DNA of 64,000 bases from Eledone cirrhosa (lineage: Eukaryota), in NCBI GenBank assembly GCA_964016885.1, contig OZ024741.1, forward strand, positions 156,798,001-156,862,000, in the 5' to 3' direction. The translations under genes were made by a program, and so were the position numbers. Of the stretch, positions 4,090 to 61,533 are shown piece by piece (position 1 is the stretch's first letter; every line of letters begins with the position of its first letter). Below the pieces are notes generated by a model that saw only the letters and a list, made by a program, of their open reading frames with translations, ran no database searches and was not told the DNA's origin.

Positions 4090-4333
4090 TGTTATACTTT
4101 GGGAGGGTCATGTTGCCAATAAGAAACACACGCACCAGTAGCTTTCACTTCAATTTATTATAAATTAAATTTATAAATTCCTAAATATATAAATTTAATT
4201 TATAATAAATTGAAGTGAAAGCAACTGGTGCGTGTGTTTCTTATTGGCAACATGACCCTCCCAAAATATAACAATATCGGTTTCAACACAAGTTTTCAGA
4301 TAAAGAATCTTGCTAAACAAATTCAGAAACGAA
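4090..4333. mobile_element. Twin-arm (fold-back) mini insertion between (TA)n tracts
   Basis: 4090-4175 is the reverse complement of ~4188-4275; the right arm runs ~58 nt further. A shorter copy with the same two ends lies at 25623-25687. Confidence 0.85.
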
Positions 4334-4390
4334 ATATATATATATATATATATATATATATATATATATATATATATATATATATATATA

Positions 4391-6590
4391 TTTATTAAAA
4401 TAACAGATTAAATTTTAAGCAAAGAATCGCTGCTTTCACCCTTAACGGGATCTTCTGAAACTAACAAAGTCAATCTGTAAACGCAGAAGTGGATATTTCA
4501 AAAAACGTGGCAACCGGGGGAAGACAGGAAGACGATACTTTGGTTCGTGGAAACGTTCGCTATGCAAATAAGTAATGGTATAAACAAAACATATACTTAG
4601 CTCCCACATCAAGACGTAAAATATCCACGTATAGATCGTACTATCCGTTAGGGTATAACGTGGGGCTGTAATACAGGAAAGTTTTGTGCAATTTATGTTT
4701 ACAAGCCGAAATTGGCTCCGATTTTTTGTTTAAGATGTGGTCTGTGGCGTAGAGTATTTCCAGGGCTTCAGCGGCGCAGAAGTCACATGTCTTTTATTTC
4801 CGTTATACGATCTAGCCCTAGCTAGGATATCCCAGTGTAACTTATATTGGGTGTGGTTGTCTTTTAGACTCCAGATATAAGCTGAAAGTGACGTCATATT
4901 CCTTCTTAGAGGGTAACGAAAAGAATGGGTATGCATGTAAAGACGCTGCTTGAATCTATTGGCGGTTAACCCTATGTAGGCTCTACGGGGCGTGGGTGTT
5001 ACAACCTTACATTTGTAGACAATGTTACTAGAGAGGCATTTCCCGGATAGGGGGCAATCAACCCGATTCCTACAATTACAGTTAGTACTAACTACAGGGT
5101 TGCACGTGTTCCTACGGCTAGGTAGTTTAGCTAAATTTGAAGCTGTGATGTTATGTGCAAGGTTAGGAGTCGTAGAGTAAGAAATTTTAATAGTATTTCT
5201 ATTACAAATTTTACTATATTTATGTGTAGGGAGAAAATGCTTCGTAATAAGGGAAAGAAAGAACTTCGCTAATGGTGTGGCCACCTCCATATTATATGGT
5301 GGGTTATACCAACAAATGCGACGGGATCTATTTATTCTAGGTCTATTTTCGTACTCTGTATATGCTACCTTATCGACAAATCCACTTCGAGCAAGAGCTT
5401 CATTGTAATAAGTGGAATGGTCGTTGAAAATACGCTCGTTAATGGAAATACGGGAAAGCCTCAACGAAACGTTTCTTACCAGGTTCTTGGTTATGCTGGC
5501 AGGATGGTTGGAATGCTTACTTATGTAATTAAGCGTATCATTCGGCTTTCTATACGGGCAATACAACCCATTCAATAAATTGAGGGTAACGTCGAGGTAA
5601 TTAACGACCGAGAGATTGGCCTCAACCTGTATAGAGAGGTTGAAGCCTTTAAAGAAGGCTGTGAGTTCTTTTCTGAACCTGTCGCAAGCACGAGGTCCGC
5701 ACTTAGTCATGGTCAAAAGACCATCGTCACGGTACAAACCACCGCCCGCGTTGGGGAATTCGTCCTTGATAGAGAAAAGAAGGAAAAGGCCGATAAGATC
5801 AGTAACCTCCGCAGAATCGCTGGCGCCCATACTCACGTCGAATGGGGTACTATTGGATTTTTTAATCCAACTAGAGTCGTCGAAATGAATCACCGACTTT
5901 CGGGCATTGAGGATGACATCAACTTCGAAATCCTTAACCACTGTGAGTGTTTTAGCGAAATTGATAGCTCTAAAGAGAAGTGGTAAAGTGATGGAGGAGT
6001 AGTAATTGTTGATGTCGAATTGGATAAAACGGCAATGTTCCTTGTTACATATGCCGTTGAACCAATCAATCACCGCGAAAGAATTGTTCCACAGTGCAAG
6101 AGGGGCCAAACTTCTAATTTCAGGTATAATTCTATCAAGAATCGTTTTACTAAGTCTACCTAAATCGGACTTCGTAGGGTTAATAAGCCGAATAGAGGGG
6201 TTGTTCGGAAAATTAGATTTGTGATCCTTCAGGGTAAAGTGGGGAGAAATAGGGTCCAGAGGTTCGGTCCAGTCCAGGATGTTGAGATCAGATGTGATTT
6301 AAGTATATGTTTTGTTTATACCATTACTTATTTGCATAGCGAACGTTTCCACGAACCAAAGTATTGTCTTCCTGTCTTCCTCCGGTTGCCACGTTTTTTG
6401 AAATATCCACTTCTGCGTTTACAGATTGACTTTGTTAGTTTCAGAAGATCCCGTTAAGCAGCGATTCTTTGCTTAAACTTTAATCTGTTATTTTAATAAA
6501 TATTTGCTCTACGGTTCTTATATATTTGATATATATTTATCTTTATCGAGCCCTCTTTGAATTTTAGTCTTCAAATTTATTATTATTACT
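4391..6590 (-). mobile_element. Penelope-like retroelement (Naiad-like), 5'-truncated, with inverted 3' arm
   Basis: Minus arm 4391-6299 holds RT, EN and 3' UTR. Plus arm 6300-6590 is an inverted copy of 4391-4599 plus a ~90 nt extension. (TA)n flanks both ends. Confidence 0.92.
4641..6295 (-). pseudogene. PLE reverse transcriptase + GIY-YIG endonuclease ORF (one frameshift near 4792)
   Basis: FIQFDINNYYSSI, FDVSMGASDSAEVTDLIG, GLYRDDGL, WYNPPY, CNC..CPLSGKC, IVYKC..YIGLT. After the frameshift it continues TCDFC..LNKKSE..CKH to a stop at 4641. Confidence 0.92.
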
Positions 6591-6623
6591 ATATATATAT
6601 ATATATATATATATATATATATA

Positions 6624-58842: not shown

Positions 58843-59005
58843 ATATATATATATATATATATTAGAAAGTGAGGGGGTTTTTTTTACAAATTGAAAAATA
58901 ACCGATGTGTCCTACACGAGTGAAAGTATAAAGAAAAAGAGATGAAATCGAAAATGCAACTGGAGTCTTATTTATTTTTTTTAAATATATATATTTATTT
59001 GGTTC

Positions 59006-59041
59006 CTTTACCGGTTTCGCATTTCTTCTGCTTTTCAAAAG
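59006..59041 (-). ncRNA. Minimal hammerhead, U3-A8 variant
   Basis: ctt-TTGAAAA-gca-gaagaaa-tgc-GAAA-CCGG-TA-aag. Confidence 0.65.
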
Positions 59042-59654
59042 TAGAGCTGAGATGGAGGGTCTGTGGTTTTTCTCACATATATATATCAATTTCTGTCTGT
59101 GTGTAACCAGTTGACGTCTAAACCATTGATCCGATCCTGATAAAACTGTACACACATGTTAAGCTAATATTCAGAAACAGAACTGGCTAATTGAATTTCA
59201 ATAAAAATCAATAATAGAACCCCTGAGGACATTAAACCTTCCCTCCCACTACTCCCCTTTCTCCTCCCACAACTCAGTCCTCCAAAACGAGGCACCGATT
59301 TATTTGTTTTTTTTTTGTTCTTCATTCTGTAGAGAAAAAGAGAGCGGGGATGAGAGAGAAGAGATACGAGAGAAAGAGAGGGGATGAGAGAAGAGGGTAA
59401 AAGAGAGAGGAGGTGAGAGAGAGAGAAAGAGAGCCAACGAAAGAGAGAGGGATAGATTAGAGGAGGGTGTGAAAGAGAACAGAAAAATTAAAGCATAGTT
59501 CGATAACTAACTTTTATTTATTTATTTTTTATCGCTTGTTAACTAACTCCTTTCTTAACGTTACTTCTCTCTCTCTCTCTCTCTCTATATATATATATAT
59601 ATATATATATATATATATATATATATATATATATATATATATATATATATATAT

Positions 59655-61533
59655 AAATGTAAGTATGTATGTATACGTACATACATATATGTATACAGAC
59701 GTACAGTAGCATGTATATATATATATATATATATACATACATGCAGGTACACATACATATATGCACGCATCAGTTTAGCAGGCGCTTATTATAGCGCTGC
59801 TTTGTTCGTTTGTCAACAAACTGAACAGCCTGAATTTATGCCATACGGTGTTAAGGCAACCACGTCACCTTTTTGTTCAACACTGACACAGGAACGATGT
59901 ACTAGTTTCAAGCTTGTTAGCTATCATCAGCACCGTTTACCCATCTGCCAGATAGTTGAACGTTCGAAAGTATATACTTTCCTTATGAAAATTAACGGCT
60001 GAGCAGCCTAATTTGCATATTGAGTGAGTTAAATCGGTCAGGCATACCGAATAAAAATAAGTTGAAAAAAATGAAAACGAAAAACGAAATTTCATTTCTC
60101 ACTCTTAGTATGGCACTTACTTAAATGTAAGTATGTATGTATACGTACATACATATATGTATACAGACGTACAGTAGCATGTATATATATATATATATAT
60201 ATACATACATGCAGGTACACATACATATATGCACGCATCAGTTTAGCAGGCGCTTATTATAGCGCTGCTTTGTTCGTTTGTCAACAAACTGAACAGCCTG
60301 AATTTATGCCATACGGTGTTAAGGCAACCACGTCACCTTTTTGTTCAACACTGACACAGGAACGATGTACTAGTTTCAAGCTTGTTAGCTATCATCAGCA
60401 CCGTTTACCCATCTGCCAGATAGTTGAACGTTCGAAAGTATATACTTTCCTTATGAAAATTAACGGCTGAGCAGCCTAATTTGCATATTGAGTGAGTTAA
60501 ATCGGTCAGGCATACCGAAAACAATAAGTTGAAAAAAATGAAAACGAAAAACGAAATTTCATTTCTCACTCTTAGTATGGCACTTACTTAAATGTAAGTA
60601 TGTATGTATACGTACATACATATATGTATACAGACGTACAGTAGCATGTATATATATATATATATATATACATACATGTAGGTACACATACATATATGCA
60701 CGCATCAGTTTAGCAGGCGCTTATTATAGCGCTGCTTTGTTCGTTTGTCAACAAACTGAACAGCCTGAATTTATGCCATACGGTGTTAAGGCAACCACGT
60801 CACCTTTTTGTTCAACACTGACACAGGAACGATGTACTAGTTTCAAGCTTGTTAGCTATCATCAGCACCGTTTACCCATCTGCCAGATAGTTGAACGTTC
60901 GAAAGTATATACTTTCCTTATGAAAATTAACGGCTGAGCAGCCTAATTTGCATATTGAGTGAGTTAAATCGGTCAGGCATACCGAAAACAATAAGTTGAA
61001 AAAAATGAAAACGAAAAACGAAATTTCATTTCTCACTCTTAGTATGGCACTTACTTAAATGTAAGTATGTATGTATACGTACATACATATATGTATACAG
61101 ACGTACAGTAGCATGTATATATATATATATATATATATATATATACATACATGCAGGTACACATACATATATGCACGCATCAGTTTAGCAGGCGCTTATT
61201 ATAGCGCTGCTTTGTTCGTTTGTCAACAAACTGAACAGCCTGAATTTATGCCATACGGTGTTAAGGCAACCACGTCACCTTTTTGTTCAACACTGACACA
61301 GGAACGATGTACTAGTTTCAAGCTTGTTAGCTATCATCAGCACCGTTTACCCATATATGTATGTGTACCTGCATGTATGTATATATATATATATATATAT
61401 ATATATATATACATGCTACTGTACGTCTGTATACATATATGTATGTACGTATACATACATACTTACATTTAAGTAAGTGCCATACTAACAGTGAGAAATG
61501 AAATTTCGTTTTTCGTTTTCATTTTTTTCAACC
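59655..61533 (-). mobile_element. Retrozyme-like tandem array: ~3.6 x 468-bp monomers plus inverted 180-bp arm
   Basis: Identical HHRs on the minus strand at 59894-59936, 60362-60404, 60829-60871 and 61304-61346; inversion at ~61353; (TA)n flanks; no credible ORF. Confidence 0.93.

What the first reader, a model, noticed from the sequence alone, without database searches (positions are those of the whole stretch)
4090..61533. Shared twin-arm integration signature: both RNA 3' ends face outward into (TA)n
Seen in about 18 insertions from 65 bp to 5 kb, coding and non-coding: 4090-4333, 4391-6590, 9818-9979, 10919-11148, 20271-25325, 25623-25687, 34430-35471, 38343-38631, 38722-38967, 39011-39074, 39153-40180, 45175-45538, 49228-50039, 51996-52182, 52855-55563, 56988-57303, 58056-58842 and 59655-61533. 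Wherever an ORF or HHR gives the sense, the left arm is minus and the right arm plus, joined head to head, often at a microhomology. Known: PLEs often carry inverted pseudo-LTR ends. Inference: both nicked strands of a symmetric (TA)n target prime cDNA synthesis and the two cDNAs are then joined, as a default pathway across unrelated families.
Basis: partly seen in the sequence, partly recalled or inferred. Interest (0 to 1): 0.8.

Follow-up and report, generated by a model that had tools for sequence, protein, structure and literature searches.

The report
Penelope elements' two-start inverted insertions
These are Penelope-like jumping genes sitting in TA repeats, and their long-known back-to-back arms almost always end at two different fixed points of the element, which likely means both cut DNA strands start copying the same RNA, a testable answer to how these elements insert.

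Summary
Of the 18 listed inserts, 17 have clear inverted arms (39011 is weak); ORF or hammerhead sense makes all head-to-head. All are Penelope-like elements (PLEs) or non-coding derivatives.

In 1.2 Mb of arbitrarily chosen genome, four families gave 59 direct head-to-head joins and 0 tail-to-tail. Independent Illumina reads show such joints, so it is not a long-read artefact.

The layout itself is published (Arkhipova 2013; Craig 2021). It is not a default across unrelated elements: 88 clusters had no partner arm and 0 of 101 young tRNA-SINE hits were paired.

Not found in my literature searches: each family has two fixed outer ends (tail end S2, inner site S1), and inserts pair one of each, 47 against 1, with 11 unclassified. 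In 18 of 35 tight junctions neither arm contains the other, which simple fold-back cannot make. Arms share rare variants.

Best reading: twin priming on one RNA from both nicked strands (about 0.55), matching in vitro data on a lizard PLE. Snap-back remains a partial rival.

The parts
4090..4333 (.). Family B twin insert: minus arm from S1 (4090 to about 4181), plus arm to S2 (tail 4274-4333)
   Evidence: sense from the GIY-YIG-type C-terminus and hammerhead core upstream in genomic copies
4392..6299 (-). Family A long arm from S1, with a 5'-truncated RT plus GIY-YIG-type ORF at 4730-6298
   Evidence: 666 homologues at E<=1e-10
6300..6589 (+). Family A short arm carrying the 91-nt tail (S2); arms not nested
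9818..9979 (.). Family C twin insert, S2 left and S1 right
   Evidence: hammerhead variant
10919..11148 (.). Family A non-coding twin insert, S1 left and S2 right; hammerhead core on plus at 10993
20272..21903 (-). Family F short arm with a tail of about 36 nt; includes part of the GIY-YIG region
21904..25325 (+). Family F long arm: RT (Pfam RVT_1) and GIY-YIG, ending in (CT)n(TA)n; arms not nested
25624..25686 (.). Family B 65-bp twin insert: S1 arm joined to a tail-only arm with no shared sequence (4-nt overlap)
34430..35470 (.). Family G (485-bp unit) twin insert, junction about 35062; hammerhead core on plus near 35312
   Evidence: core seen by eye, not returned by my scans
38343..38631 (.). 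Family M twin insert; both ends within about 5 nt of one site (exception to the S1+S2 rule, or a TA-like tail)
38722..39001 (.). Family D twin insert, S1 left, tail right
   Evidence: hammerhead in locus L227
39011..39074 (-). Family J tail-only minus arm with a possible 12-15 nt plus arm (weak)
39154..40180 (.). Family E twin insert, 186-nt tail on the left; hammerhead on plus near 40040
45175..45538 (.). Family J twin insert, S1 left and S2 right
49228..50039 (.). Family H twin insert, tail left, hammerhead on plus at 49947; GAGGGCGGG in both flanks, like a target duplication
51996..52182 (.). Family C twin insert, S2 left and S1 right
52855..55563 (.). Family I twin insert: long minus arm with tail and endonuclease ORF end (54520-55077); plus arm 55075-55563; arms 99.2% alike
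56988..57303 (.). Family H-related twin insert, S1 left, 70-nt tail right, hammerhead on plus at 57130
58056..58842 (.). Family J twin insert: tail-only minus arm, captured local DNA 58117-58290, plus arm with hammerhead at 58533 ending at S1
59655..61533 (.). Family J: 3.6 tandem 467-bp hammerhead units on minus (S1) joined to a 182-bp plus arm (S2)
37233..38095 (+). Single-arm family M insert (counter-example)
46361..48205 (-). 5'-truncated PLE with RT and GIY-YIG and no inverted partner found (counter-example)
6625..8460 (+). Decayed PLE-like ORF with no inverted partner found (counter-example)
33436..33686 (.). Head-to-head pair of a tRNA-derived SINE, not in (TA)n; the only such SINE pair seen among young copies

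Best explanation
These are Penelope-like element insertions whose two head-to-head arms end at two different fixed sites of the element, likely because both nicked strands of the (TA)n target prime reverse transcription on the same RNA, one at the tail end and one at an inner site. Shown: orientation, two fixed outer ends per family, one-of-each pairing, variable inner ends, non-nested arms, shared variants between arms, excess microhomology. Inferred: the GIY-YIG enzyme, perhaps as a dimer, nicks both strands. One 3' end starts at S2, and the other pairs with a short (AT)2-3 run at S1. Both cDNAs stop at varying 5' points, and where they overlap the RNA is copied twice by strand displacement. 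The cDNA ends are joined through 1-6 nt of complementarity, sometimes after a short snap-back or capture of nearby DNA. If one cDNA is absent or lost, an ordinary single-arm copy with or without tail results.
For: 59 head-to-head and 0 tail-to-tail in 1.2 Mb. Outer ends cluster at two positions per family while inner ends scatter (family C inner ends pile up at the hammerhead stem). Pairing: S1+S2 47, S2+S2 1, S1+S1 0, unclassified 11; p=3e-13 against a 50% ceiling, 5e-6 if all 11 are counted against. The rule was found on 8 blocks (31:0), written down as a prediction and held on 4 fresh blocks (16:1; only 2 of the 4 held these families). Among 35 junctions with gap <=12 nt, 18 are non-nested (12 S1 arm reaches further 5', 6 tail-only), 9 nested, 8 equal. 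Both S1 and S2 occur in single-arm copies with TA on both sides (8 and 10). Arms of one insert share 18-71% of their minor variants against 1-8% between inserts. Overlap >=2 nt at 47 of 68 tight junctions against 34% in simulation. 9 of 10 families have a 3-6 nt alternating TA run at S1. In vitro, a lizard PLE protein cleaves and extends both strands, starts at two internal sites that bound the tail, and is predicted to be a dimer (PMC11167929).
Against: No direct biochemical test here. 17 of 35 tight junctions (nested or equal) also fit snap-back, and small snap-back palindromes occur at junctions (L135, L144). In multi-unit arrays the short arm resembles the innermost, not the outermost, unit of the long arm (two shared derived states in one array, TA length in another), which does not fit both starts firing in one unit at once. 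Shared variants could come from conversion between palindrome arms. The lizard study reports starts not homologous to the cut DNA and no strand difference in start site, whereas S1 here shows short TA matches. Target duplications could not be resolved: no convincing marker among 86 inserts. 36 of 104 junctions had gaps and were left out of the microhomology count. Some search loci are duplicates of each other. Family J arrays include one S1+S1 case, and window 38343 is an exception.
Confidence: 0.55

Rival explanations
1. One primed strand only: the cDNA (or an antisense RNA, as proposed by Arkhipova 2013) folds back and is copied, and the second end is resolved by the endonuclease or by annealing at the other site.
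For: Junction palindromes and short snap-backs (PMC3846280). 17 of 35 tight junctions nested or equal. Short arm matches the innermost array unit. Arms share variants.
Against: cDNA fold-back cannot give the 18 of 35 non-nested cases, including tail-only arms with no shared sequence (window 25624-25686). The antisense version gives no reason why both outer ends are exact to a few nucleotides at sites that also start single-arm copies.
Confidence: 0.25
2. Twin priming on two separate RNA molecules, one per protomer.
For: Explains long overlaps (1.6 kb in 20271-25325) without displacement synthesis; two RNAs from one donor locus would also share variants.
Against: Two independent RNAs give no reason for 47:1 one-of-each pairing. 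Arms almost always belong to the same subfamily.
Confidence: 0.12
3. Two independent insertions, or later rearrangement of palindromes, with tail-to-tail pairs selectively lost.
For: (TA)n tracts collect many insertions, and conversion could make arms alike.
Against: Joins are direct, without TA between the arms; there is no reason for S1+S2 pairing; the 3 tail-to-tail neighbours in 800 kb all had a TA tract between them.
Confidence: 0.05
4. Fold-back artefact of sequencing or assembly.
For: This window's own junctions were not bridged by reads. In one search, twins were 11 of 15 plus hits but 2 of 15 minus hits (p=0.0025).
Against: Arms differ by about 1-12%, are often non-nested and stop at fixed element sites. 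Raw Illumina reads of other samples and contigs of other runs show many different head-to-head joints. Tail side is 23 left and 24 right in unbiased blocks.
Confidence: 0.02

Closest known systems
EN+ Penelope-like elements with an inverted 5'-truncated copy and optional tail (PMC3846280; PMC8557442 Fig. 2)
   Same: Head-to-head inverted arms, tail on one end, junction overlap or palindrome, (TA)n targeting, hammerheads, partial tandems.
   Different: Those papers describe the layout qualitatively and leave the mechanism open (antisense self-priming; endonuclease resolution). Here it is counted: 59:0 orientation, 47:1 pairing, and half of the tight junctions non-nested. Tails are 36-186 nt rather than 30-40.
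PAc (Poseidon of Anolis) in vitro reaction (PMC11167929)
   Same: Both strands cut and extended; two internal RT starts bounding the tail; uncleaved hammerhead RNA used.
   Different: In the parts I read, that paper does not link this to inverted insertions. It reports no primer homology and no strand difference in start site; here S1 usually has 3-6 nt of TA match.
LINE-1 twin priming (original model recalled; passages in bioRxiv 10.1101/2024.12.14.628481)
   Same: Both target ends extended on one RNA, cDNAs joined head-to-head.
   Different: In L1 the second start is variable and the arms barely overlap (recalled). Here it is a fixed site and arms overlap by up to 1.6 kb.
Animal non-LTR retrozymes (bioRxiv 10.64898/2026.07.22.740005)
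   Same: Families J, D, M and G are tandem non-coding units with a type I hammerhead.
   Different: Here they show the same two-site twin-arm ends as coding PLEs, direct structural support for mobilisation by PLE proteins. Circular RNA not tested.

Membership tests
EN+ Penelope-like elements | Single ORF with RT and C-terminal GIY-YIG endonuclease | tested here: met
   21807-23261 RVT_1 31.5 bits (cut-off 29.6) and 23394-23960 GIY-YIG 28.9 (cut-off 22.6), one ORF broken by stops; 46361-47251 GIY-YIG just below cut-off; 4730-6298 no relevant Pfam hit but RT and YIG motifs by eye and 666 homologues
EN+ Penelope-like elements | Tandem or inverted pseudo-LTR structure with optional tail | tested here: met
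EN+ Penelope-like elements | Type I hammerhead near the end | tested here: met
   Own pattern scans for A, C, D, E, H, I, J, M; B and G by eye; none found for F; no Rfam hammerhead hit among the 150 of 271 rows shown
EN+ Penelope-like elements | RT phylogeny sister to telomerase; clade (Neptune, Hydra, other) | not tested
   Motifs suggest F is Neptune-like (cysteine linker, CCHH) and A, I and the 46361 ORF Hydra-like (no CCHH); read by eye against PMC8557442 passages. A and F align only weakly (E 8e-4)
Twin-priming insertions (L1 type) | Two cDNAs primed from opposite target ends on one RNA | tested here: inconclusive
   Non-nested arms and shared variants fit; not shown directly
Twin-priming insertions (L1 type) | Arms nearly non-overlapping, variable second start | tested here: not met
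   Only 10 of 47 are tail-only; the second start is fixed. It works like twin priming but is not the L1 form
Twin-priming insertions (L1 type) | Target-site duplication | tested here: inconclusive
   Hidden in (TA)n; two suggestive window cases, 20271 and 49228
Non-LTR retrozymes | Tandem non-coding units each with a hammerhead | tested here: met
   Family J 467-bp units
Non-LTR retrozymes | Self-cleavage and circular RNA in vivo | not tested
   No RNA data examined

The most novel reading that the evidence does not exclude
PLE integration is inherently two-ended: a dimeric RT-endonuclease clamps the tail of one RNA, nicks both strands and fires one reverse transcriptase from each tail boundary. 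The tail, the inverted pseudo-LTR and the plain copy are then three outcomes of one reaction, shared by deeply divergent PLE clades and their retrozymes.
Probability: 0.4. Interest if true: 0.72.

Novelty: new variant of a known kind. Interest (0 to 1): 0.45.

Why it matters
How PLEs form their tandem and inverted structures is named as unresolved in PMC8557442 and PMC3846280. The one-of-each pairing and non-nested arms are genome-scale constraints that separate the published self-priming idea from twin priming. They can be tested at once in the existing in vitro PAc system. They also warn annotators that short palindromes in TA tracts here are PLE ends, not MITEs or microRNA hairpins.

Tried and rejected
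Rfam: the 150 rows shown were microRNA-like noise on palindromes and microsatellites, plus a 5S and a tRNA; not used for sense. Family-independent scan: 55 TA-flanked inverted repeats in 800 kb, 8 callable (all head-to-head), 47 uncallable, some pairing separate inserts. One search's first SINE control (6 head-to-head, 5 tail-to-tail in 116 clusters, old relatives included) was replaced by a young-copy control. Target-duplication search: 11 of 86 had chance-like markers, none convincing. Tail folding: no shared structure; z from -2.9 to +0.5. One search's S1 microhomology figure was mis-coded and redone. The idea that family C is one amplified master hairpin was rejected, because junctions differ by locus. 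Reads did not bridge this window's own junctions; runs with small word shares are not used for any species claim. The plus/minus imbalance is unexplained, probably candidate picking by the search tool. No earlier scan notes were found. No structure prediction or phylogeny was run.
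Full report
Setting. The window is G000:C2:156798001-156862000 in a 3.0-Gb assembly of 1796 contigs. It is 34% GC with 135 (TA)n tracts. The host is probably an octopus-like mollusc; that is my inference from recall, not from a call.

Check of the observation. Self-alignment shows inverted arms in 17 of the 18 listed inserts; 39011-39074 has a clear minus arm and at most a 12-15 nt plus arm. 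Sense was fixed per family. ORFs give it for A (4730-6298), F (RVT_1 and GIY-YIG above Pfam cut-offs), I, and B (endonuclease C-terminus upstream in loci L136 and L143). Hammerhead cores give it for A, H, I, J and C, D, E, M; C and M carry a U3-A8 core variant (label recalled), and B and G were read by eye. All are left-minus, right-plus. The A and F proteins barely align (E 8e-4), so divergent PLE lineages are involved, but all are PLEs or derivatives.

Genome-wide test. I took 12 blocks of 100 kb at round-number coordinates. For the four abundant families A, B, C and I: 59 direct head-to-head joins, 0 tail-to-tail, 88 clusters without a partner within 300 bp, 18 of them with TA on both sides. 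With a wider window-derived library on the first 8 blocks, direct tail-to-tail joins were also 0 for PLE families; 3 tail-to-tail neighbours had TA between them. A young tRNA-SINE gave 0 adjacent opposite pairs among 101 hits and one in the window. The signature is PLE-specific and common (at least 59 of 147) but not universal.

Artefact. Arms differ by about 1-12%. Contigs of other runs show many distinct minus-to-plus joints (the 15 best-supported shown of 183, all of this kind). Raw Illumina reads of other samples show such joints and thousands of reads running from S1 into TA. This window's own junctions were not bridged. One search's strand imbalance (11 of 15 against 2 of 15) did not recur in the blocks (tail left 23, right 24).

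Each family has two fixed outer ends: the tail end S2 and an inner site S1, at about -87, -56, -77 and -81 in A, B, C and I. For A, ends scored at -44 were counted as S1 because alignments run into the TA tract. Twin inserts pair one of each: 31:0 in the first 8 blocks with 6 unclassified and 16:1 in 4 fresh blocks with 5 unclassified, after the prediction was noted. Two of the fresh blocks held no copies. Several unclassified cases look like S1+S2 of diverged subfamilies. Search-selected loci gave 48 S1+S2, 1 S1+S1, 1 S2+S2 and 15 other, with some duplicates. Independent choice of start could give at most 50% (p=3e-13; worst case 5e-6). Family J in the blocks gave 5 clear S1+S2, one S1+S1 and one apparent S2+S2 that resolves into an S2+S1 insert plus a second array.

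Nesting. Of 47 S1+S2 inserts, 35 have junction gaps <=12 nt: 12 with the S1 arm reaching further 5', 6 with a tail-only arm, 9 with the S2 arm further, 8 equal. In the first 18 each arm holds sequence the other lacks, so neither can be a copy of the other. Arms of one insert differ by 1.5-5.8% against 4.8-11.9% between inserts, and share 18-71% against 1-8% of minor variants, so they come from one source or were homogenised later. Overlap of >=2 nt occurs at 47 of 68 tight junctions against 34% simulated; 36 of 104 gapped junctions were set aside. At S1, 9 of 10 families continue with 3-6 nt of alternating TA; single-family background chances are 0.03-0.16 and two families are related. Arms run through the hammerhead, so templates were uncleaved.

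Mechanism. Shown steps are the counts above. Inferred: nicks on both strands, two starts on one RNA, displacement synthesis over the shared part, end joining. Against it: 17 of 35 junctions also fit snap-back; small snap-backs exist; and in arrays the short arm matches the innermost unit, which favours late priming, snap-back or conversion. I give twin priming on one RNA 0.55, fold-back or antisense self-priming 0.25, two RNAs 0.12.

Literature. PMC3846280 (passages) calls head-to-head the most frequently observed arrangement, notes the tail on one inverted pLTR and junction palindromes, and proposes self-priming on an antisense template. PMC8557442 (passages) shows the same layout, (TA)n bias and a tail often at one end, and calls the mechanism undefined. 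PMC11167929 (parts 1-2 of 4) shows both strands cleaved and extended and two starts bounding the tail. Also seen: bioRxiv 2026.07.22.740005 (part 1 of 5), PMC13282606 (passages), bioRxiv 2024.12.14.628481 (passages). Searches found no paper proposing twin priming for PLEs or counting S1+S2 pairing. [quoted passage not shown]

Verdict. Real, largely known anatomy with a new quantitative constraint that makes an open mechanistic question testable. Interest 0.45.

Noticed in passing
window 55618-55729 (-): A 5S rRNA copy (Rfam 71 bits) lies directly between two (TA)n tracts with its 3' end at one of them; possibly retroposed by the TA-targeting machinery.
   Followed up: no
window 58117-58290: About 170 bp at an arm junction duplicates 56718-56891 (98%), 1.3 kb away, like a templated insertion during break repair.
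   Followed up: partly
window 33436-33686: A young tRNA-SINE forms a head-to-head pair with a short flanking duplication; none among 101 hits in the blocks.
   Followed up: partly
window 37237-38095 and 48293-48958; L120: Hammerheads with a U3-A8 core and a 54-79 nt stem II region; family A has an altered core (CAGAAGA). These were not among the Rfam rows shown.
   Followed up: partly
L041-L050 block, positions 75266-84744: 9.5-kb array of the 467-bp hammerhead unit; 14 right-hand units alternate between two variants, like an amplified dimer.
   Followed up: partly
L111-L130 (family C): Most inner arm ends fall at -131 to -141, in the hammerhead stem II region, suggesting an RT stop or joining hotspot.
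   Followed up: partly
window 52940-52999 (reads): Reads from other samples show 31-nt and 58-nt same-strand jumps back to S1, possibly the origin of short partial tandems.
   Followed up: no
window 13844-13981: 83% palindrome of unknown origin just upstream of a GIY-YIG fragment related to family F (14103-14448).
   Followed up: partly
window 16213-16284 (-): tRNA-like match (Rfam 40.8 bits).
   Followed up: no
L001-L030: Twin arms in 11 of 15 plus-strand hits but 2 of 15 minus-strand hits; not reproduced in unbiased blocks, unexplained.
   Followed up: partly
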